Part shown: positions 14,148-23,186 of the stretch, one piece after another
How positions within the stretch are numbered: the first letter of the stretch is position 1
Layout: every line of letters starts with the position of its first letter
Source of the DNA: a phage
Sequence record: PZ583743.1
Length of the DNA stretch: 64,000 nt
Strand: one strand, 5' to 3'
Made by a program: the position numbers and the translations under genes
Notes under the pieces: model-generated
Databases searched by the model: none
Seen by the model: only the letters and a program-made list of their open reading frames with translations
What the model was told of the DNA's origin: nothing

Positions 14148-14177
14148 ATTATAACACAACACGAGGGACTTGTAAAC
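14148..14177 (-). promoter_or_regulatory. T4-type early promoter (GTTTAC, 18 nt, TGtTATAAT)
   Basis: Minus strand reads GTTTAC-aagtccctcgtgttgtgt-TATAAT with an extended -10 TG; drives the 96-aa ORF. Confidence 0.6.
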
Positions 14178-16234
14178 TACATTTTGAACTTTTTAGACAT
14201 TTCGTTGATGTTAACCAAAGAAGCCAAGATTTGAGAAACTTCGTTTTCCTCTTCTTTTGATTCTTCTACAAGGAATTGATTAAACCCAGCCATTGGACGA
14301 ACTTCACCAGTTTCCATTAGATGGTCGCCATCATATACCGATTCTTCTAATTGTTCAGAAGGAGGAACGATTGTGCCTTCGATTAGATACTTGTTATAAG
14401 CAGTTTCTTTCATCATGTATGTACTCACTTTATTAATCTTCAGCAAAATTCCACGCGGTAAAATAACTTCAGCTTCTGACGGAAATCCTGATAAATGACC
14501 CGGAACGATAACTTTGATTCGCTCAGCTCCTTTAATTACCATACCCACGCTAGTTTCAGCATCTTCATTCGCATAAGCAGAATGACTGCCCATATGCATT
14601 AAATCTTCAGCATCAACGGAACCTTCTCCTTCACCAGAAAATACTGCGCTGGAATCATCTAGAGCCATATAGTTTTTACCATACTCACCGAAGATATTTG
14701 GTTTAAGCGATGTGGATACGAAGTTCTTAAAATAGAACATTTTATTTTCAATATTATGACGTAAAGTTTTAAAGGTAACTTCTTGGCCACGGTAAAGCGT
14801 AGTTCCTGGAGGAAGAACTGATCCTTTGGCAAAAGCAGAATCCATCGTCTCGATGTGTTTAATAGCTCGTTCCATATATTCTTCACGAGTAGAATCCGGT
14901 TTACCTAAAAGGAACGAGTTCATTTCAACATATGAATCTGCACAATAATCTTCAATTACATCAGACTCAGCCTGAGTTAATCCTTTTGGAGTTACTTCGG
15001 TGCTTGCGTATTCATATGCCTGAGCAGCAGATTCATTAATCAATTTATAAATGCCATTCATGACAAATTGAATAATAGCTACCTTTTCATCTGGCGTGGC
15101 TTTAGAACCTTTAACTAAATCATTGATAATTTTCTTAATAACATCAAAGCTATTAGAAATATTAATGTCAGCGAGATCGCTTAAAATTTTATCGGTTTTA
15201 TAATCAAAGAATTCTTTATTCTTTAAATATTCTTGAGAACCTTGATGTGTTATATCGCTCTGCAGTCTGATAGACGGATCACGTAAACGTGCATGGGCCA
15301 ATGCAATATGATTTCGGAAGCTTTCTAGTTCATAATCGTTAGATTTAAAACGAGAAGCACTTCTCATACCACCGATAGCTCCTTTGCCGAAGTTTGAACC
15401 AATCTGAATAACGCCAGAGTTCATTGGTCCTTCTGCTTTATATACCGGAACTTTAGATTCAAACTCTTGATATTTCTTAGCAGCGAAGCTATCACCCTGA
15501 AGTGAAGCATCGACGGTAGAGTATTGAGCTTGTGCTGCTAATCGACGACTAATTTTAGTTTTCTGAATAACAGCTTGATCTGTGCGCTTATCATTTTCTA
15601 AAGCAATAGAAGCAGCAACAGCAACAGCTTTAGGAACAGCATTACCTGTTTTAACATCTACATAAACATCACCAACCTTTGATTCAACCTTTGTGAATAA
15701 CTCAGTTGAAATAGGAGGTACACCTGGAATGTCTTCTAAATTGGCATTTTTACGGTAAACCATAATATATGCATATTTCTTATCATAGTCCCAGATTTCT
15801 TTTAAAAGAACATATCGACCTGCTCCTTTAGTACGTACTAAACGGTCAGCAATAACTTGAATTTGTCGAGCTGCGCCGTTTGTTTTACTCTTTAGTACGC
15901 GAAATAGGCATGCGTCAATTTTATACTGTTTCATTGTTTGAAGAGCAGTATCAAAAACCGCATTAATAACACCAATTGGATTTCCACCCAAGTTTTTAAG
16001 TTTAACTAATGATAGTTTCTCATTAACACCTATCATTACGATATGCATCATTTTATCGCCTGGCTTAACGTTTTTATTTGTATCACCGCCAGAGGTGTAT
16101 GTACAAAATCTAAATCCAGGAAGCACACTTTCTTCACCTGCTTGAATAGCAAAAATTTGAGGTATTTTATGCTTAGGATTTAAGTTAACAACCGGCGCCG
16201 AAGCGCCGTCAAATAATTCTGTAATAAGTTCCAT
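14177..16234 (-). CDS. Alt-like ADP-ribosyltransferase paralog (685 aa)
   Basis: N-terminal ~230 aa near-identical to the adjacent Alt (MELITELFD…); C-terminal ART motifs YRGQ (Arg), FVSTSL (STS), SEAEVILPRG (ExE); starts 3 nt after the upstream Alt stop. Confidence 0.85.
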   Translation of the reverse strand: MELITELFDGASAPVVNLNPKHKIPQIFAIQAGEESVLPGFRFCTYTSGGDTNKNVKPGDKMMHIVMIGVNEKLSLVKLKNLGGNPIGVINAVFDTALQTMKQYKIDACLFRVLKSKTNGAARQIQVIADRLVRTKGAGRYVLLKEIWDYDKKYAYIMVYRKNANLEDIPGVPPISTELFTKVESKVGDVYVDVKTGNAVPKAVAVAASIALENDKRTDQAVIQKTKISRRLAAQAQYSTVDASLQGDSFAAKKYQEFESKVPVYKAEGPMNSGVIQIGSNFGKGAIGGMRSASRFKSNDYELESFRNHIALAHARLRDPSIRLQSDITHQGSQEYLKNKEFFDYKTDKILSDLADINISNSFDVIKKIINDLVKGSKATPDEKVAIIQFVMNGIYKLINESAAQAYEYASTEVTPKGLTQAESDVIEDYCADSYVEMNSFLLGKPDSTREEYMERAIKHIETMDSAFAKGSVLPPGTTLYRGQEVTFKTLRHNIENKMFYFKNFVSTSLKPNIFGEYGKNYMALDDSSAVFSGEGEGSVDAEDLMHMGSHSAYANEDAETSVGMVIKGAERIKVIVPGHLSGFPSEAEVILPRGILLKINKVSTYMMKETAYNKYLIEGTIVPPSEQLEESVYDGDHLMETGEVRPMAGFNQFLVEESKEEENEVSQILASLVNINEMSKKFKM

Positions 16235-16237
16235 GAT

Positions 16238-18334
16238 TTATCCTTGAACGAACTTGTAAGGCATGTTTGTAATATCTATGCAAGACGCAATAATTCCAAG
16301 AGATGATTCTACTTTCTGTTTAACATTTGATGAAACAAATGATGCAAAGTCAACTCTGTCTTCTATTTCAATATCACCTGTCATTGCAACTACTTCACCA
16401 GTTTCCATTAGACGGTCACCGTCATAAATTACTGATTCGGTGAGTTCTTCCGTAGTCATAACTTCAGCTTGAATGAGTTTTGTATTATTAGATGTTGTTC
16501 CGTCATTATTAGAAGCATCAGTTATTTTATTAACTTTGACCATCAATCCGCGCGGTAGAATTACTTCAGCTTCTGTTGCTATTCCGAGACTTCCTGGATA
16601 TACAACATTAACTTTATGAGCTCCATCAATTGCCCATCCTATTTGAACTTTAACGTATTCAGGATTTTCTTTATACGCTCTTATTTCGTTTGGATTAATA
16701 GTTATTCCTTCTTCATTTTTATCAACTGTTAATTCATTACGAGCTTCTGGTTCTAAAAGACCGATACCAGCATGTGTAATTCCAAAACGTCCAAAAATGA
16801 TAGGAGTTAAAGAAGTAGATACAAAATTTCTGAAATAGAACACTTTATTTTTAACTAGCGCTTCGTATATAGGAGCAGTCATACTTTGAGCACGATAAAC
16901 TGTAATGCCTTCTGGTATACGGTCACCATTTTCAAAAGCTGAATCTAAATTATTTATCGCAGATTCAATTTCTTTTTCACTCATTACATCATATCGTTCT
17001 GGATTGTAGCGGCCTAAAAGAAGATTATTGATGTCAGTATATCCTGATCCACAATACTCTCTAATGCCGCGCTTTTGCGATGGAGTATATTTAGAACCAT
17101 CACGTGCAATGGTAATATCAATCATTGGACCTGCACCAATTCCAGAAAAACTATAAATCATTCGTTTGAGGAATTTAGTTTTTGCTGCGTTCCAGGAATT
17201 TTTAGTTATTTCTTCCCAGACTTCATCTGGCTGCCCTTTACGAGTTTTATTATGTTTATCAAGCCAATTATCTTTATATTCTTCAAAGAATTGATTAACA
17301 GCTGCTGCGTATTTCTCTAAACATTTTATTGAAGTAGTTGGTTCATTTTTAATCGCATTAAGAATTACATCTTTAATTTTTTCAGAAACTTCATTAACCT
17401 CACTTTTTGAAAAGAATTTATAGTCATAGTGAAGTTCATCTGCGGTTCCTTCGGCAATAATTTTTGCTGCCTTAGTTTTAGAAGCTAATGAATTAATTCC
17501 AAGCTTCATTTCTTCTGCTTCTGGAATTAAAGGAGCAGTAGCAGGTTTATTAAAATTAGCTGCGGTAGATTCATACTTCTGAAATAATTCACTTTCAAAT
17601 CTAGAAGATTCTAATGATTGACTTTGTGCAATTGCTCTACGGGAAATTTTAACTTTAACTATTACAGCTTGGTCAGAACGTTTATCATTTTCTTGCGCAA
17701 TAGATGCTGCAATTGCTTCATTTTTAGTTACTTGAGCTCCAGTATCTTTATTGATATAAACATCGCCGACCTTCGATTCAACTTTAGTAAAGAGCTCGGT
17801 ACTAATTTCCGGAACTCCTGGAATGTCTTCTAGTGATACATTTTTGCGATGTATAAGAATATATGCATACTTTTTATCATAATCCCAGAGTTCCTTAAGA
17901 AGGACGTATCTGCCACCTGAACGACTACGGATAAGTCTATCAGCAATAAGTTGAATTTGTCGAGCTTGACCAGCAGTTTTAGACTTAAGAATACGAAGCA
18001 TGCAGGCATCAATTTTATACTGACGCATCGTCTGCATTGCAACAGTAAAAACTGAATTGATATAATTAATTGGGCTTGGACCGAGACCTTTCAATTTAGC
18101 AATTGAACCTTTAGCAGTTAATGTAAAAGGAACAATGTGCATCATTTTATCGCCCATCTTTAGATCACGGTTAGTATCACCTCCAGATGTATAGGTACAT
18201 AAACGAAAGCCTGGTTGTTCAATTGCGTCATCAACATGAACTGAAAAAATTTGCGGTATTTTCTTCTTTGGATTTAAGTTTGTAATCGGAAGAGTAGTAT
18301 CTTCGTCAAATAATTCTGTAATGAGTTCCATCAT
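16238..18334 (-). CDS. alt: Alt, head-packaged ADP-ribosyltransferase (698 aa)
   Basis: MELITELFDEDTTLPITNLNPKK… N-terminus; ART motifs VYRAQ, FVSTSL, TEAEVILPRG; late promoter upstream; which of the two paralogs is orthologous to T4 alt is uncertain. Confidence 0.85.
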   Translation of the reverse strand: MMELITELFDEDTTLPITNLNPKKKIPQIFSVHVDDAIEQPGFRLCTYTSGGDTNRDLKMGDKMMHIVPFTLTAKGSIAKLKGLGPSPINYINSVFTVAMQTMRQYKIDACMLRILKSKTAGQARQIQLIADRLIRSRSGGRYVLLKELWDYDKKYAYILIHRKNVSLEDIPGVPEISTELFTKVESKVGDVYINKDTGAQVTKNEAIAASIAQENDKRSDQAVIVKVKISRRAIAQSQSLESSRFESELFQKYESTAANFNKPATAPLIPEAEEMKLGINSLASKTKAAKIIAEGTADELHYDYKFFSKSEVNEVSEKIKDVILNAIKNEPTTSIKCLEKYAAAVNQFFEEYKDNWLDKHNKTRKGQPDEVWEEITKNSWNAAKTKFLKRMIYSFSGIGAGPMIDITIARDGSKYTPSQKRGIREYCGSGYTDINNLLLGRYNPERYDVMSEKEIESAINNLDSAFENGDRIPEGITVYRAQSMTAPIYEALVKNKVFYFRNFVSTSLTPIIFGRFGITHAGIGLLEPEARNELTVDKNEEGITINPNEIRAYKENPEYVKVQIGWAIDGAHKVNVVYPGSLGIATEAEVILPRGLMVKVNKITDASNNDGTTSNNTKLIQAEVMTTEELTESVIYDGDRLMETGEVVAMTGDIEIEDRVDFASFVSSNVKQKVESSLGIIASCIDITNMPYKFVQG

Positions 18335-18383: not shown

Positions 18384-18572
18384 TTAATAATCTAATGGTA
18401 AGAGAGTACGATATATTTCAAACTTTGGCCCTTTTTCATAGGCATCAAATGTTTCTGTAAATTTATTATAAGCATATGCATCTACAAATTCGAGAATGAC
18501 TTGTGATACAGAAGTAGAAACATCTCCACCTTCTTTTTGAGCTATAACAATTGTTTCTAAGTAAGCTTTCAT
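18384..18572 (-). CDS. Hypothetical protein (62 aa) between ligase and alt
   Basis: ORF with ATGA coupling to gene 30; followed by hairpin AAAGGCCcgaaGGCCTTT at 18368-18385. Confidence 0.6.
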   Translation of the reverse strand: MKAYLETIVIAQKEGGDVSTSVSQVILEFVDAYAYNKFTETFDAYEKGPKFEIYRTLLPLDY

Positions 18573-20029
18573 AGACCAGTTACCTCATGAAAATCACCAA
18601 ATACATCCTCGAATGTATTAGCTTTAGTTTTATCTTCACGTAAACGAATCGCAATCGGAAGAAATAATTTAACGTAATCAGTGCGGCCATCAGATTTTAA
18701 CCAACCGTTGCATTCGCACTCTAGAATTTTTCCAATATAATAATTTTGGTTTTCCATAATGCGAGTACGGTCAAGTTCATGTGATTTTACACCAGCTTTA
18801 TCTTTTAAACCTGAACCAGCATTTACCTTAATTTTTCCACACTCTGATTCAAGAATAAATCCACCTGCTTTAGTAGGGTCTTTACGGTGAGGATAAATTC
18901 CTACAATTTTTAAATCAACATCAATTACTTCTTTAAATTTATAGAGATTTTTTGAACGAGCATTTTCCCACAATCCATCGGTATTTTTGAGAATAATACC
19001 TTCAAGACCTCGGTCAATATATTTTTTATAAATTACCTTAGCTTCATCTAGGTTATTTACTACCTGGTTTTCAATTAAAATTACTTTATCATATCCTGAT
19101 GTCATTTGTTCTAGTTTAGAAAAACGTACATCATATTTTAAACGAAACGCCGGAAGACCGTATATTTCTACCAACGGGACATAATCCCAGACCTGAAACT
19201 TCATACATTTGGCTTCTTTTTCTGAAATAGTTCCCTTTAAAGATTTATTGGCGATTCCATTAGAAGCAGTACGAGATTCAGCTACTTCAGCAAACTCTTT
19301 AACTTTACTATTTTCAGGAGAGTCAAAAAGAAAATCTAGGCCTTCTGGCTCCTTTTCAACTTGCTCATGGTATACCAATTCGCCATCAATTAACACACCT
19401 TCTGGATGAATCTGGCGGGCTTCAGCAGTCATTTTGATTAACTCTTCCTTAAGAAGATCTAATCCTAGATATTCATTACCAGCTCGCGATAAAAGACGAA
19501 CATCATCTAATTCATCGCCTCGGACTTCAGCAAAACACCGAGCTCCATCTGCTTTTAACTGCGCAAAAGCTGGAAACTTGATATTCTTACTAATGCCTTT
19601 TTCATCATAAGAACTTGCCAGCATTTGAGGTTGTTCAGGAATTAAACCTGGCCAAACTTTGTTTGCAATAGATACTGAAGCACCACATTCAAGGTCTCGC
19701 ATCATAACTCGACGCAAAACTTCAACATCATCCTTTTTACCATCGGTGATATATCCAGTTAATTCCTCAATTGCTGCATTGCCAGTTAATTTCCGAGTAG
19801 CTAACGTGAATTCAATGAAGTCAAGCATATCGGTAATAGTCAGCATTCCAAAACTCTGGGTAGCAATACCAGGTTTAGGCCATTTCTTGATATAATACTG
19901 TAACCCACGAGAATAAGTCAGACGATATACTCGTTTAAGCAATTCATTATCTTTATTCTTTTCAAGAATTGCTTGCTTCTGCTTAGTTGAACCAATAGAT
20001 GCTATTTCATTTAGAATTTCAAGAATCAT
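18569..20029 (-). CDS. 30: ATP-dependent DNA ligase gp30
   Basis: 486 aa; adenylation motif KADGAR; recognised as T4 DNA ligase. Confidence 0.95.
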   Translation of the reverse strand: MILEILNEIASIGSTKQKQAILEKNKDNELLKRVYRLTYSRGLQYYIKKWPKPGIATQSFGMLTITDMLDFIEFTLATRKLTGNAAIEELTGYITDGKKDDVEVLRRVMMRDLECGASVSIANKVWPGLIPEQPQMLASSYDEKGISKNIKFPAFAQLKADGARCFAEVRGDELDDVRLLSRAGNEYLGLDLLKEELIKMTAEARQIHPEGVLIDGELVYHEQVEKEPEGLDFLFDSPENSKVKEFAEVAESRTASNGIANKSLKGTISEKEAKCMKFQVWDYVPLVEIYGLPAFRLKYDVRFSKLEQMTSGYDKVILIENQVVNNLDEAKVIYKKYIDRGLEGIILKNTDGLWENARSKNLYKFKEVIDVDLKIVGIYPHRKDPTKAGGFILESECGKIKVNAGSGLKDKAGVKSHELDRTRIMENQNYYIGKILECECNGWLKSDGRTDYVKLFLPIAIRLREDKTKANTFEDVFGDFHEVTGL

Positions 20030-20295
20030 TGCTCATCCTTCAAGGTTTGGTTTACAGCTCTATTATAAATCAATTCATCATTAAGCTCAGGCAAAGACCT
20101 ATGATATGTAGTTCTAACTTTATTTCCTTGCATCCAGTGCTTGACGTAAATGAAACCTTGCTCTACACATTTTTTAAAAATTCGTTCATCCTTTTGAGCA
20201 CGGAACTCTGGATTACATCTAAAAAATTGATTTACGTGACCGTAATCACGTGTAGTATTACCTTCATTTTCATAAATAGTATGAACAACAAACAT
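20026..20295 (-). CDS. Hypothetical protein (30.1 position)
   Basis: 89-aa ORF, ATGA-coupled to ligase. Confidence 0.65.
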   Translation of the reverse strand: MFVVHTIYENEGNTTRDYGHVNQFFRCNPEFRAQKDERIFKKCVEQGFIYVKHWMQGNKVRTTYHRSLPELNDELIYNRAVNQTLKDEQ

Positions 20296-21134
20296 TAGAA
20301 TGCTCCTTGAAAAATATTATCACCACTAGTAGGTCTATTATACAAATACTCTATGCCACCAGGTTTAATATAGTTCCATGTCTGAAACGGATGTGTCTGA
20401 TATGGATGATATAGATGATTATAAGGATTTAATCCAGGCGTTCTCCAGGTAGTGTTCCAAGGAAAAGAATCGTTTTTAACCATCTTCTCAATTAAATCTT
20501 TTATAGCTTTTTCACTATCAAAACTTTCTTTATTTTCCTTCGGCGAAAAAAGCTTATTTTCTACATCATTCCATGTATAAACTCGCTGCGCAGTTTTTGG
20601 AATATTGTCACGCTCTCCTCGAGCCATCCAATAAACAGGAACATTTAATATTTCACTCGCATGATCGCAGTGATGAGCGAGATCGTCAATATAACAAATT
20701 ACGTTATATTTCTCTTTTGCCTTTTTGAACAGCTCTTCTTTTGAAGAATCATGACCACACATCATTACTTCCGAGAAAGCACCAGGAAAAAGAGCATTCA
20801 AATTAAATTGACGATTCAACAGAGCGTCAATAGAATCACCCAATGCTGTAACAGCTACAAAATTATAATCTTCTTTTAATTTGTTAATTACACACAGGGC
20901 ATCTTTATACGGAGACAAGTAACGAATAAAATCTGAACGATTGTATTTTTCAATTAACTTGACGCCAAGTTCTTCGTCACAATTAAAGAGTTTACCCGGA
21001 GAAATAAATTTCTCATCTTGGATCATTTTTAAAATATGTTCTAATGGAAGATTATATTTCTGAGCAAAATAAGGAAGGCCTGATTGCCAGCTTAAACATA
21101 CTCCATCAATATCAGTTAAAATAGTTGGCTTCAT
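20295..21134 (-). CDS. HAD-superfamily phosphatase, 5'(3')-deoxyribonucleotidase (NT5C)-like, with a W/Y/P-rich C-terminal extension
   Basis: N-terminal ILTDIDGVCLSW matches the HAD motif I (DxDGV) as in NT5C-family nucleotidases; 279 aa. Confidence 0.7.
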   Translation of the reverse strand: MKPTILTDIDGVCLSWQSGLPYFAQKYNLPLEHILKMIQDEKFISPGKLFNCDEELGVKLIEKYNRSDFIRYLSPYKDALCVINKLKEDYNFVAVTALGDSIDALLNRQFNLNALFPGAFSEVMMCGHDSSKEELFKKAKEKYNVICYIDDLAHHCDHASEILNVPVYWMARGERDNIPKTAQRVYTWNDVENKLFSPKENKESFDSEKAIKDLIEKMVKNDSFPWNTTWRTPGLNPYNHLYHPYQTHPFQTWNYIKPGGIEYLYNRPTSGDNIFQGAF

Positions 21135-21595
21135 AGAGAGTCTCTTAATAGGTTTAACACATCAATAAATTCAGCTTCGGTTAGTATTGTATCATCTTTT
21201 GTTAGACCACTAGCCATGCTGTGCTTCAAAACTTTTCCTTTCGAGGCTTGTAATGCATCACGAAAGCCCCTGTTTTGGATTGCTGCTTCAAAATATGCAT
21301 TTGTGTATAATTCTTTCCATGCTGGAGAGTATCTTGAAAATGGAACTCCAAGCCAAAAGAGGGTCCCACGGTCCTGAGCTCTAGCATAAGACCTTCCAGC
21401 TTGTTGGGCGGCAAGCCCGGACATCCCAAATATACGTCTTTGCTGTTCAACATTTTTCACCTTACATCCTTGGAGGAATCCTTCAAGACCTCCAAATTGG
21501 ATACCATCCATAACGAAAGGCCATTGAGCGAAATTGCTTAATGCACATGATGGCCATCTAAAATTGCTTCTTATCTCTAGCTCAGACATTTTCAA
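21131..21595 (-). CDS. NADAR-family (YbiA-like, DUF1768) protein, putative ADP-ribose-processing hydrolase
   Basis: 154 aa; SNFAQWPFVMDGIQFGGLEGFLQGCKV aligns by eye with the E. coli YbiA core SNFAAWPIKVDGKTWPTSEHYFQAQKF. Confidence 0.7.
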   Translation of the reverse strand: MKMSELEIRSNFRWPSCALSNFAQWPFVMDGIQFGGLEGFLQGCKVKNVEQQRRIFGMSGLAAQQAGRSYARAQDRGTLFWLGVPFSRYSPAWKELYTNAYFEAAIQNRGFRDALQASKGKVLKHSMASGLTKDDTILTEAEFIDVLNLLRDSL

Positions 21596-21788
21596 TACTT
21601 ATAATTTCAACATCAGCCCAATGACCATAGCAAGGAAGACGAAATTCAACTGGCCAGTTAGGGTCCTTTTCTAATATAATAGACTTAACTTGTGGTTCTT
21701 CATGTTCATCGGTATACGGACCTTTATATGTTACTTTATATGTGACCTTAATGTACTGAATTCCAAAAATCTTATTAATTATATTCAT
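21582..21788 (-). CDS. Hypothetical protein (68 aa)
   Basis: ORF in the 30.x accessory block, overlapping-coupled to neighbours. Confidence 0.55.
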   Translation of the reverse strand: MNIINKIFGIQYIKVTYKVTYKGPYTDEHEEPQVKSIILEKDPNWPVEFRLPCYGHWADVEIISIENV

Positions 21789-21982
21789 ACTAATTCCTTT
21801 AATCCATAGATAGGAGATAATTCATCGCCCATACGAAGGTCTTCATTTCCATCTACCCAAGAAACAATATAAGCTTCTTTTATTTGAACGTCTCTCCATT
21901 TAAATGCAGGCAAAACCTTAGAAATTAATCCAGGTATACCGACTCCCTTTAATTCAACAGTTTGACCCAAAAAGAATTTCAT
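21785..21982 (-). CDS. Hypothetical protein (65 aa)
   Basis: ORF in the 30.x accessory block, ATGA coupling. Confidence 0.55.
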   Translation of the reverse strand: MKFFLGQTVELKGVGIPGLISKVLPAFKWRDVQIKEAYIVSWVDGNEDLRMGDELSPIYGLKELV

Positions 21983-22320
21983 TAGAACCTCATCTGAAAT
22001 CCGTGCGATTTAACATTACCACCACCAATGTCAGAAATATTAATTTCACGCGCAATTGAAGGGTCAATGTCAATTTCACGATTAAGTTTAGTGATAGCTA
22101 AAGTATCACGCCCATTTACAGTACGGAACTCTAAAGGGCAGACTACATTAACATAGTTTTTAATCGATTCACTAGTAGGCTGCAAATGAGCAGGAAGGTC
22201 TTTAGGCGCCTTAGAGAAAACCACTTCACAGAAATTTTTGCGGGTATCAAAATAAGTAGTCATAAACATAACATTTTCCTCAGTAAGGGGCCAAAGCCCC
22301 TCATTTATTTTAAATATCAA
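21982..22320 (-). CDS. Hypothetical protein (112 aa)
   Basis: ORF in the 30.x accessory block. Confidence 0.6.
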   Translation of the reverse strand: MIFKINEGLWPLTEENVMFMTTYFDTRKNFCEVVFSKAPKDLPAHLQPTSESIKNYVNVVCPLEFRTVNGRDTLAITKLNREIDIDPSIAREINISDIGGGNVKSHGFQMRF

Positions 22321-22675
22321 ATTCGTTAAGAACTACATCAAAGATTGCTTCAAGATGCTCAGGTTTAGCTCTGTTACTCAGAATATGACGAATCCAAGTT
22401 TTAACCAAAAGCTTGCGATTAACGCCATTCCAGCAAGGATGAGTCCCTAAATCGCGTTCACGGAAATCATCATCCAGAGCGATTTTAAAGTTGGAACCTT
22501 CCATCGTGATTGAAACCGTGATACCGTTTTCAAATCGCATATAAACGTAGTTAGGAGTCATATACTGTTCAATTTCGCATACTGATCCATTTTGATGTTT
22601 CCAAAGGCAGATAGTATCAATAGAACCTGCAATACCGTTAGAAACATATTTACGTTCAAAGTTGATGTAGTTCAT
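22310..22675 (-). CDS. Hypothetical protein (121 aa)
   Basis: ORF in the 30.x accessory block; a GC hairpin (22288-22301) sits in the overlap with the downstream ORF. Confidence 0.6.
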   Translation of the reverse strand: MNYINFERKYVSNGIAGSIDTICLWKHQNGSVCEIEQYMTPNYVYMRFENGITVSITMEGSNFKIALDDDFRERDLGTHPCWNGVNRKLLVKTWIRHILSNRAKPEHLEAIFDVVLNEFDI

Positions 22676-22743: not shown

Positions 22744-23076
22744 TTATTTTACTACTTTCCAGTGCTGCATGTCAAGTTTGCCAACTTTTTTCATCTTCTC
22801 AATTAAGCGTTCTGCACGTTGGCGAGCTGTAACATAATACCATTCACCTAATTCATTTTGTTCAATTTTTCCAACGATTACTGTATTCAATTCATAAATC
22901 CAACCAGTAAAGAAATTATGAACTTGAATTGTAAAGGTGAAATCTGTTCCCATACCTTCTGTTGTTTCTACTTCAATAATATCACCTTCAACTGCCATTA
23001 AGAACCACATAGTTTCATCATATTTACCATTGAAACATTTAGTTTTAATTGTAGCGTTCAGATTAATCGTTTTCAT
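22744..23076 (-). CDS. Hypothetical protein (110 aa)
   Basis: ORF preceded by a candidate early promoter (GTTTAC at 23128-23133, minus strand). Confidence 0.6.
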   Translation of the reverse strand: MKTINLNATIKTKCFNGKYDETMWFLMAVEGDIIEVETTEGMGTDFTFTIQVHNFFTGWIYELNTVIVGKIEQNELGEWYYVTARQRAERLIEKMKKVGKLDMQHWKVVK

Positions 23077-23186
23077 TTTATTCTCCTTTGTTTGTGTAAG
23101 ATAATACTATCACAAAGGAACCACACTGTAAACAACTTTGTGCAATCTTTGGAAAATAAAAAAGGACTCCCGAAGGAGTCCTCAAC

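What the first reader, a model, noticed from the sequence alone, without database searches (positions are those of the whole stretch)
20295..21595. NADAR-family hydrolase plus NT5C/HAD-like phosphatase pair next to DNA ligase
Two translationally coupled ORFs just upstream of gene 30. One has the YbiA/NADAR core (SNFAQWPFVMDGIQFGGLEGFLQ…), the other an N-terminal DIDGV HAD motif typical of 5'(3')-deoxyribonucleotidases. NADAR proteins have been reported to remove ADP-ribose from guanine in DNA, reversing DarT-type modification. A phage that also carries two ADP-ribosyltransferases (Alt paralogs) and places this pair beside its ligase could be running a nucleic-acid ADP-ribosylation repair or anti-DarTG function. 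This is inference from domain resemblance only.
Basis: partly seen in the sequence, partly recalled or inferred. Interest (0 to 1): 0.65.

Follow-up and report, generated by a model that had tools for sequence, protein, structure and literature searches.

The report
T4 AdfN and neighbouring HAD phosphatase
These are the T4-type genes 30.3 and 30.2: 30.3 is AdfN, an already characterised enzyme that strips ADP-ribose off phage DNA to defeat the bacterial DarTG1 defence, and 30.2 is an uncharacterised nucleotidase-like phosphatase that published transposon data show is not needed for that job.

Summary
The window is a Tequatrovirus (T4-like phage). The two ORFs are real and are the orthologues of T4 genes 30.3 (149 of 152 residues identical) and 30.2 (97% identical).

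**30.3.** It is a NADAR-fold protein with the catalytic Glu36 and Lys43, the phage-class His123, and an intact C-terminal helix. Its T4 orthologue was renamed AdfN in 2025. AdfN was shown genetically and biochemically to remove guanine-linked ADP-ribose from DNA and to be necessary and sufficient against DarTG1.

**30.2.** It is a Mg-dependent HAD phosphatase with all four motifs, a C1 cap, and a disordered variable tail. Its nearest family is NT5C (5'(3')-deoxyribonucleotidases).

**The "pair" idea fails.**
- In a published T4 transposon screen under DarTG1, 30.2 insertions are neutral (log2FC −0.12) while 30.3 insertions are lost (−7.25).
- Across T4-like phages, 30.2 stays next to the ligase gene, whereas the NADAR gene is often about 55–70 kb away.
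- The overlapping start/stop is shared by all eight junctions of the gene array.

The only other significant DarTG1 hit in T4 is the small upstream gene 30.4. Verdict: ordinary and already known; 30.2 remains a modest open question.

The parts
21131..21589 (-). Gene 30.3 = adfN (anti-DarT factor NADAR), 152 aa. It carries the catalytic E36 and K43, the phage-class H123, and an intact C-terminal helix.
   Evidence: Pfam PF08010 Phage_30_3 at E 4e-70. 149 of 152 residues identical to T4 gp30.3. AF2 pLDDT 94.2. The top three Foldseek PDB hits are YbiA 2b3w, PnNADAR 8bau and GlNADAR 8bat. E36 and H123 are invariant and K43 nearly invariant in 37 homologues. Function published in PMC11825919.
20295..21134 (-). 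Gene 30.2, 279 aa. A C1-capped HAD phosphatase core (residues 1 to about 220) related to NT5C, followed by a disordered variable C-terminal tail.
20328..20360 (-). Short motif GGIEYLYNRPT near the end of the disordered 30.2 tail. It recurs as G(T)GIEYLxxQPTA in 10 of 35 homologues.
   Evidence: Alignment A1 and regex scan.
21582..21788 (-). Gene 30.4, 68 aa, no known family. Its stop lies 8 nt inside 30.3. It probably drives translation of 30.3 by coupling.
   Evidence: ORF list. Junction sequence, and the absence of a Shine-Dalgarno-like run upstream of the 30.3 ATG. It is the second of only two genes significantly depleted under DarTG1 in T4.
20026..20295 (-). Gene 30.1 (DUF3045), which separates 30.2 from the ligase gene.
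   Evidence: Pfam PF11243 at E 1.6e-63.
18569..20029 (-). Gene 30, ATP-dependent DNA ligase. It is the conserved downstream neighbour of 30.2 across T4-like phages.
   Evidence: ORF list. T4 annotation. The ligase lies downstream of the HAD gene in 71 of 77 viral loci.

Best explanation
Gene 30.3 encodes AdfN, an orphan NADAR-fold ADP-ribosylglycohydrolase. During infection of a DarTG1-carrying host, the DarT1 toxin ADP-ribosylates guanines in phage DNA. AdfN hydrolyses the guanine-ADP-ribose N-glycosidic bond, using Glu36, Lys43 and the phage-class His123. This restores unmodified DNA and allows replication. Gene 30.2 is a separate enzyme: a Mg2+-dependent HAD phosphatase with an Asp8 nucleophile, an Asp10 general acid, and phosphate/Mg ligands Thr96, Lys132 and Asp150/151. 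It has a helical C1 cap and is related to NT5C. It most likely dephosphorylates a small (deoxy)nucleoside monophosphate-like substrate. It is dispensable in the laboratory and is not part of the anti-DarT mechanism. The two genes are simply neighbours inside one co-directional array of overlapping genes (30.7 to alt.1). Shown elsewhere: AdfN activity and phenotype, for the T4 orthologue. Shown here: orthology, fold, catalytic residues, HAD motifs, gene-neighbourhood statistics. Inferred: the substrate class of 30.2, and the transfer of the AdfN phenotype to this phage.
For: Identity of the window: 99.9% to a Tequatrovirus, with the same gene order as T4.

30.3:
- 149 of 152 residues identical to T4 AdfN; the differences M56L, R107K and M125I lie away from the catalytic residues.
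- NADAR fold: pLDDT 94, and the only convincing PDB matches are the three NADAR structures.
- The family profile's best PDB hit is YbiA at E 1.4e-3.
- 18 of 37 homologues hit Pfam NADAR, best E 1.5e-7.
- E36, K43 and H123 are conserved.
- Published: delta-adfN T4 and T2 cannot plaque on DarTG1; plasmid adfN rescues RB69; purified AdfN removes ADP-ribose from DNA; E36A and K43A impair it; the C-terminal helix is needed. In vitro G-ADPr hydrolysis is also reported.
- An independent Tn screen gives 30.3 log2FC -7.25 under DarTG1.

30.2:
- Motifs and fold.
- Nearest family is NT5C: the profile's top PDB hit is cdN 2jao; 7 of 35 close and 17 of 54 distant relatives hit PF06941; one relative exceeds the gathering score; hhalign bridge at 98.5-99.3%.
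- W16 aligns with the Phe at nucleophile+8 of cdN and is at least 90% conserved in the wider family.

Independence of the two genes:
- 30.2 Tn insertions are neutral under DarTG1 (-0.12, p 0.61, 71 sites) and in M9 (-0.10).
- The NADAR gene lies 54-69 kb from the HAD gene in at least 7 complete genomes.
- The HAD gene stays next to the ligase in 67-71 of 77 loci, whereas NADAR is within 100 bp in 19 of 77.
Against: - No experiment was done on this particular phage. Three substitutions relative to T4 AdfN are untested.
- The window's 30.3 itself does not hit Pfam NADAR, and 30.2 itself hits no Pfam or NCBIfam model. Both assignments rest on structure prediction and transitive homology.
- NADAR lies within 6 kb upstream of the HAD gene in 36 of 77 loci from several host genera, so the linkage is not negligible.
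- The Tn screen tests fitness in one host and one DarTG1 allele only.
Confidence: 0.85

Rival explanations
1. The NADAR and HAD proteins act together, beside the ligase, as a nucleic-acid ADP-ribosylation repair or anti-DarTG module. For example, the phosphatase might process a product or intermediate of de-ADP-ribosylation. Or gp30.2 might be the unknown T-even factor that AdfN needs for full activity.
For: The start and stop overlap by 4 nt. The two genes abut in all T4/RB69-like loci, and NADAR is within 6 kb of the HAD gene in 36 of 77 loci. AdfN-T4 works fully only during T-even infection, and the authors suggest an additional T-even protein.
Against: T4 Tn insertions in 30.2 (71 sites) show no depletion under DarTG1, and only 30.3 and 30.4 are significant genome-wide. 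Both genes are kept but lie 54-69 kb apart in at least 7 complete T4-like genomes. 60 of 80 NADAR loci have no HAD gene in the fetched flank. NADAR hydrolysis releases free ADP-ribose and intact DNA, so no phosphomonoester needs removing (established NADAR chemistry, PMC11543638). The overlap is shared by all junctions of the array.
Confidence: 0.04
2. gp30.2 is a polynucleotide end-healing 3'-phosphatase that prepares nicks for the adjacent DNA ligase, analogous to the HAD phosphatase domain of T4 Pnkp.
Against: The model has a roughly 70-residue helical C1 cap between motifs I and II. In HADs this usually encloses small substrates, whereas Pnkp-type phosphatases are capless (general HAD knowledge). 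NT5C, not Pnkp, is the recurring sequence match. T4-like genomes are broadly syntenic, so adjacency may only be inheritance. 30.2 is non-essential although the ligase is essential.
Confidence: 0.08
3. gp30.2 is a counter-defence or pool-control enzyme that acts on a soluble nucleotide other than a canonical dNMP. Candidates include a nucleotide-derived immune signal, a toxic nucleotide analogue, or a modified-base precursor.
For: It is conserved in about 1440 phage records yet dispensable on K-12 in LB and M9, which is the typical profile of a conditionally useful accessory gene. Its variable disordered tail carries a recurrent short motif that could dock it to a partner. A distant NT5C-like relative overlaps a MazG pyrophosphohydrolase gene.
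Against: There is no direct evidence. There are no PADLOC or other anti-defence matches. 30.2 is never mentioned in the HIDEN-SEQ main text, where the new anti-defence genes are reported; of the per-gene tables I read the 30.2 row only for REF vs delta-rnlA, DarTG1 and LB vs M9, and it was neutral in each.
Confidence: 0.12

Closest known systems
T4 AdfN (gp30.3, anti-DarT factor NADAR; Johannesman et al. 2025, PMC11825919)
   Same: Orthologue: 149 of 152 residues identical, same position between 30.4 and 30.2, same E36/K43/H123, and a full-length C-terminal helix.
   Different: Three conservative substitutions (M56L, R107K, M125I). No experiment has been done on this phage.
DarG1 / BC4488-type NADAR antitoxins of DarTG1 (Schuller et al. 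2023, PMC11543638; PDB 8bat)
   Same: Same fold and same reaction (guanine-ADP-ribose hydrolysis). The catalytic Glu and Lys are shared.
   Different: AdfN is an orphan with no adjacent DarT gene. The third catalytic position is His rather than Asp. It is shorter. It does not rescue DarT1 toxicity in uninfected cells.
E. coli YbiA (PDB 2b3w), the NADAR founding member
   Same: Best structural and profile match: Foldseek E 1.2e-4 with TM 0.66, and profile E 1.4e-3. The N-terminal motif SNF-x-x-(W/H)P...DG...EGF/EHYFQ...K is shared.
   Different: YbiA has Glu at the last-strand position. It acts as an N-glycosidase on riboflavin intermediates and sits in a LexA-controlled operon. Identity is only 18%.
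Cytosolic and mitochondrial 5'(3')-deoxyribonucleotidases (Pfam NT5C, PF06941; PDB 2jao, 2i7d, 1q92, 3bwv)
   Same: HAD core with a C1 cap. The motif-I block DxDGVLxx(F/W)xSGL is shared. This is the best PDB profile hit and the commonest Pfam hit among relatives of 30.2.
   Different: The window protein itself scores below every Pfam threshold. It has about 90 extra C-terminal residues, largely disordered, and its own invariant block (R108, N111, LFPGAF). No substrate is known.
T4 Pnkp (PseT) 3'-phosphatase domain
   Different: Pnkp's phosphatase is capless, acts on polynucleotide ends, and is fused to a kinase. 30.2 has a cap and no kinase domain.

Membership tests
NADAR superfamily | Characteristic alpha+beta NADAR fold | tested here: met
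   AF2 pLDDT 94.2 and pTM 0.88. Foldseek's top three PDB hits are exactly the solved NADARs 2b3w, 8bau and 8bat; the fourth hit has probability 0.08.
NADAR superfamily | Conserved catalytic Glu and Lys in the N-terminal EGF(L)Q..K block | tested here: met
   E36 is invariant and K43 at least 90% conserved in 37 homologues. These are the same residues mutated in T4 AdfN.
NADAR superfamily | Significant match to Pfam PF08719 (NADAR) | tested here: inconclusive
   The window protein hits only PF08010 Phage_30_3, and NADAR is not listed even at E<=1. However, 18 of 37 family members hit PF08719, best E 1.5e-7.
Phage NADAR / gp30.3 subfamily (AdfN) | Histidine at the last-strand catalytic position (Glu in YbiA, Asp in BC4488/DarG1) | tested here: met
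   H123 is invariant and follows strand 120-122. The feature is defined in PMC11543638 and PMC11125620.
Phage NADAR / gp30.3 subfamily (AdfN) | Full-length C-terminal helix, i.e. no RB69-type frameshift | tested here: met
   The 152-aa ORF is collinear with T4 to the last residue. Helix 138-151 is predicted. The requirement is shown.
Phage NADAR / gp30.3 subfamily (AdfN) | Removes guanine-linked ADP-ribose from DNA and confers DarTG1 resistance | not testable with these tools
   Shown for the 98%-identical T4 protein and by Tn-seq. Inferred for this phage.
HAD superfamily phosphatases | Four catalytic motifs: DxD, S/T, K, DD | tested here: met
   D8 and D10 are invariant, T96 is at least 90% conserved, K132 is invariant, and D150-D151 are at least 90% conserved. 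D8, D10, K132 and D151 remain invariant in 54 distant relatives.
HAD superfamily phosphatases | Rossmann-like HAD core fold; Asp at nucleophile+2 (phosphatase rather than dehalogenase) | tested here: met
NT5C (5'(3')-deoxyribonucleotidase) family, PF06941 | Score above the Pfam gathering threshold | tested here: not met
   The window protein has no Pfam hit. A 26%-identical relative (L157 ORF) passes at 28.9 against 24.8 bits, and others fall just below at 24.0 and 22.4. hhalign of the 30.2 profile to that relative gives 98.5%. So 30.2 is a related sister clade, not a scored member.
NT5C (5'(3')-deoxyribonucleotidase) family, PF06941 | Aromatic residue 8 positions after the nucleophile that stacks on the base (its role is recalled from the mdN/cdN literature) | tested here: met
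   W16 aligns with the Phe of DGVLADF in cdN 2jao. W16 is invariant in A1 and at least 90% conserved in A5.
NT5C (5'(3')-deoxyribonucleotidase) family, PF06941 | Nucleotidase activity on dNMPs | not testable with these tools
   No biochemical study of gp30.2 was found.
Two-gene functional module (NADAR + HAD) | Conserved co-localisation across lineages | tested here: not met
   20 of 80 NADAR loci have a HAD gene in the fetched flank, 13 of them abutting. 19 of 77 HAD loci have NADAR within 100 bp. At least 7 complete genomes keep both genes 54-69 kb apart.
Two-gene functional module (NADAR + HAD) | Both genes required for the same phenotype | tested here: not met
   Published T4 Tn-seq under DarTG1 gives 30.3 -7.25 (adjusted p 0) and 30.2 -0.12 (p 0.61).

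The most novel reading that the evidence does not exclude
The gene that really partners with adfN may be the 68-aa upstream gene 30.4 (21582-21788), not 30.2. It is the only other T4 gene significantly depleted under DarTG1 (log2FC -1.79, adjusted p 0.014). It overlaps the adfN start. Its detectable homologues were found only in a subset of T4-like enterobacterial phages, including T4/RB69-like phages, where it always directly precedes adfN, and S16-like phages, where it does not. gp30.4 could be the unidentified T-even-specific factor that explains why AdfN-T4 works fully only during T-even infection. The more mundane reading is that insertions in 30.4 merely reduce translationally coupled expression of adfN, which has no Shine-Dalgarno-like sequence of its own.
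Probability: 0.1. Interest if true: 0.5.

Novelty: already known. Interest (0 to 1): 0.12.

Why it matters
It adds nothing new about AdfN. The practical result is negative: the attractive "NADAR + phosphatase + ligase repair module" idea can be dropped.

Two smaller leads remain:
- **gp30.2.** It belongs to a large family (about 1370 cluster representatives) of NT5C-related phosphatases. In T4-like phages it is faithfully kept next to the ligase gene, and it has no known substrate or phenotype.
- **Gene 30.4.** It is an unremarked second hit in the DarTG1 screen. It bears on the open question of why AdfN-T4 needs a T-even infection to work.

Tried and rejected
- **Single-sequence searches.** 30.2 and 30.3 against NCBIfam, PDB sequences and PADLOC gave nothing useful.
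- **Literature.** Searches for any characterisation of gp30.2 or a T4-like deoxyribonucleotidase found only genome-annotation mentions.
- **Fusion partners.** Longer 30.2 relatives were scanned for an informative second domain; none was found.
- **Promoter and terminator scan.** The counts do not exceed the shuffled expectation, so they serve only as a loose description.
- **gp30.2 as the missing T-even cofactor of AdfN.** Rejected on the Tn-seq data and the lack of conserved linkage.
- **AdfN countering the phage's own Alt enzymes.** I found no support. Alt insertions are neutral under DarTG1, and the AdfN phenotype is fully explained by DarT1.
- **gp30.4 as an obligate NADAR partner.** Weakened, because 30.4 homologues sit next to the HAD gene in S16-like and other phages whose NADAR gene is elsewhere.
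Full report
**What is there**

The window is a Tequatrovirus. The 1.8-kb region is 99.9% identical to Escherichia phage DCP2 and more than 97% identical to dozens of T4-like phages. The flanking ORFs are T4 ligase (gene 30), rIII and gp31.

On the minus strand, the following genes form one co-directional array:

| Gene | Coordinates |
|---|---|
| 30.7 | 22310-22675 |
| 30.6 | ends 21982 |
| 30.5 | 21785-21982 |
| 30.4 | 21582-21788 |
| 30.3 | 21131-21589 |
| 30.2 | 20295-21134 |
| 30.1 | 20026-20295 |
| 30 | 18569-20029 |
| alt.1 | 18384-18572 |

- Every junction in the array overlaps by 1-11 nt.
The quoted peptide strings are present.
- The 21595 end is an upstream TTG. The T4 start, and the published residue numbering, correspond to the ATG at 21589.
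- Gene 30.1 (DUF3045) separates the pair from the ligase.
- Two Alt paralogues (41% identical) lie just beyond the ligase.

**Gene 30.3 is AdfN**

Sequence and structure:
- The protein matches Pfam PF08010 "Phage_30_3" at E 4e-70 but does not itself match PF08719 NADAR.
- A profile of 37 homologues finds E. coli YbiA as its best PDB sequence hit, at E 1.4e-3.
- 18 of the 37 homologues hit PF08719 on their own, best E 1.5e-7.
- The AlphaFold model is confident (pLDDT 94.2).
- Its only convincing PDB matches are the three solved NADAR structures: 2b3w, 8bau and 8bat.
- E36 and H123 are invariant and K43 is nearly invariant.

Published definition of the subfamily:
- Glu and Lys are the superfamily catalytic pair.

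Published function (Johannesman et al. 2025, PMC11825919), who renamed T4 30.3 adfN:
- Delta-adfN T4 and T2 cannot plaque on DarTG1 cells.
- Plasmid adfN rescues RB69, whose own allele is frameshifted and lacks the last helix.
- The E36A, K43A and truncated variants are impaired.
- The purified protein removes ADP-ribose from DarT1-modified DNA.
- It does not counter the thymidine-specific DarTG2.

An independent transposon screen (HIDEN-SEQ preprint) found that 30.3 insertions are lost completely under DarTG1.

The window protein differs from T4 AdfN at three conservative positions (M56L, R107K, M125I) and is full length.

**Gene 30.2 is an NT5C-related HAD phosphatase**

Sequence and structure:
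- The window protein hits no Pfam or NCBIfam model.
- An alignment of 35 homologues shows the four HAD motifs: D8xD10, T96, K132 and D150-D151. Only the first 190 or so residues are conserved. The tail varies in length and sequence, and many homologues lack it.
- The AlphaFold model is confident (pLDDT above 90) for most of residues 1-200, less so for 201-220, and low from residue 221.
- It has a roughly 70-residue helical cap between motifs I and II.
- Foldseek gives 111 PDB hits at E<=1e-3. The 50 listed are HAD-superfamily structures or designs built on them.
- The best target-normalised matches are deoxyribonucleotidase-like structures (3bwv TM 0.70; cdN and mdN 0.64-0.68).

Sequence evidence for the subfamily:
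- The family profile's top PDB hit is cytosolic 5'(3')-deoxyribonucleotidase. The shared block is DGVLxx(F/W)xSGL, which places the invariant W16 on the Phe located eight residues after the nucleophile.
- 7 of 35 close homologues hit PF06941, as do 17 of 54 distant ones, more than hit any other family.
- One 26%-identical viral relative exceeds the NT5C gathering score over nearly the whole model. It aligns to the 30.2 profile with 98.5% hhalign probability.
- An exhaustive profile search finds 1373 cluster representatives, mostly stand-alone proteins of 190-220 aa.

I therefore call gp30.2 a divergent, NT5C-related, Mg-dependent phosphatase, probably acting on a nucleoside monophosphate-like substrate. 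The substrate is an inference. No biochemical study was found.

**Are the two genes a functional pair? The evidence says no**

1. **Phenotype.** HIDEN-SEQ Data S6 compares control against DarTG1. The sheet header reports two significant genes. In that table:

   | Gene | log2FC | Significance |
   |---|---|---|
   | 30.3 | -7.25 | adjusted p 0 |
   | 30.4 | -1.79 | adjusted p 0.014 |
   | 30.2 (71 sites) | -0.12 | p 0.61 |
   | 30.1 | -0.01 | not significant |
   | alt | -0.01 | not significant |
   | adfA (61.2) | -0.34 | not significant |

   30.2 is also neutral in LB against M9 (-0.10) and non-essential on K-12.

2. **Neighbourhood.**
   - Of 80 viral loci holding a 30.3-type NADAR, 20 have a HAD homologue in the fetched flank. 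Thirteen abut it, and all thirteen are T4/RB69-like.
   - Of 77 loci holding a 30.2 homologue, 71 have the ligase gene just downstream, 67 of them within 700 bp. NADAR lies within 100 bp in 19 and within 6 kb in 36.
   - At least seven complete T4-like genomes keep both genes 54-69 kb apart. In the Cronobacter phage Pet-CM3-4 contig, for example, NADAR is at about 71 kb and the HAD gene at about 130 kb.

3. **Chemistry.** NADAR hydrolysis yields free ADP-ribose and intact DNA, so there is no phosphomonoester for a HAD enzyme to remove.

4. **Coupling.** The ATGA overlap is generic to the array.

The conserved partner of 30.2 is the ligase gene. In broadly syntenic T4-like genomes, however, this may reflect inheritance rather than function.

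**A side observation**

The only other significant DarTG1 hit in T4 is 30.4, a 68-aa ORF with no family match. Its stop lies 8 nt inside adfN.

- adfN is the only gene of the array with no Shine-Dalgarno-like run upstream. Reduced coupled translation is therefore the simplest explanation for the 30.4 phenotype.
- The authors of the screen argue that polar effects are uncommon in their data, and they do not discuss 30.4.
- AdfN-T4 is known to need something T-even-specific for full activity.
- Against a dedicated partnership, 30.4 homologues remain beside the HAD gene in S16-like and other phages whose NADAR gene lies elsewhere.

I rate the helper hypothesis at about 10%.

**Verdict**

The central claim is already published, and the "pair beside the ligase" module is not supported. 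Novelty: already known. Interest: low. Two modest open leads remain: the substrate of gp30.2 and the role of 30.4.

Noticed in passing
window 21582-21788 (-), gene 30.4: In the published T4 HIDEN-SEQ DarTG1 sheet, exactly two genes are significant: 30.3 and this small upstream gene (log2FC -1.79, adjusted p 0.014). The paper's main text does not mention it. Its stop overlaps the adfN ATG by 8 nt, and adfN has no Shine-Dalgarno-like sequence of its own. The cause could be translational coupling or a real helper role.
   Followed up: partly
loci L081-L153 (viral contigs); window 18569-21134: The 30.2-type HAD gene is followed by the DNA ligase gene in 71 of 77 viral loci (67 within 700 bp), across phages of Escherichia, Klebsiella, Acinetobacter, Aeromonas, Vibrio and Proteus. 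This linkage is much tighter than its linkage to the NADAR gene.
   Followed up: yes
window 20328-20360 (-), C-terminal tail of 30.2: The disordered, aromatic- and Pro-rich tail ends with a short motif, GGIEYLYNRPT. It recurs as G(T)GIEYLxxQPTA in 10 of 35 homologues from several genera, and it occurs nowhere else in the window. It may be a docking motif.
   Followed up: partly
window 14177-16234 and 16238-18334 (-): Two tandem Alt-like ADP-ribosyltransferase paralogues (685 and 698 aa, 41% identical) lie downstream of ligase and alt.1. In this stretch the T4 reference record shows alt directly downstream of alt.1; whether T4 has a second paralogue beyond it was not checked.
   Followed up: partly
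proteins P0104-P0118, P0135, P0187: Many public T4-like sequences carry truncated or fused 30.3 alleles (83-126 aa, some fused to neighbouring-gene domains). This suggests frequent natural loss of AdfN, like the RB69 frameshift.
   Followed up: no
window 21226-21453 (-): A 75-aa ORF lies in another frame inside 30.3. It corresponds to the T4 annotation 30.3' ("internal translation in a different reading frame"). No evidence was examined for or against its expression.
   Followed up: no
L157 5574-7327: In a distant viral contig, the NT5C-positive relative of 30.2 overlaps an upstream MazG-type NTP pyrophosphohydrolase gene and precedes a 3'-5' exonuclease and a clamp-loader gene. This is a nucleotide-metabolism and replication context.
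   Followed up: partly
window 22746-22775 (-) and 23162-23183 (-): The best sigma-70-like site (TTGACA-18-TAAAAT, 11 of 12) lies upstream of 30.7, and a strong hairpin followed by a T-run lies after 30.9. No terminator-like site lies between 30.7 and the ligase. Overall site counts do not exceed the shuffled expectation.
   Followed up: no
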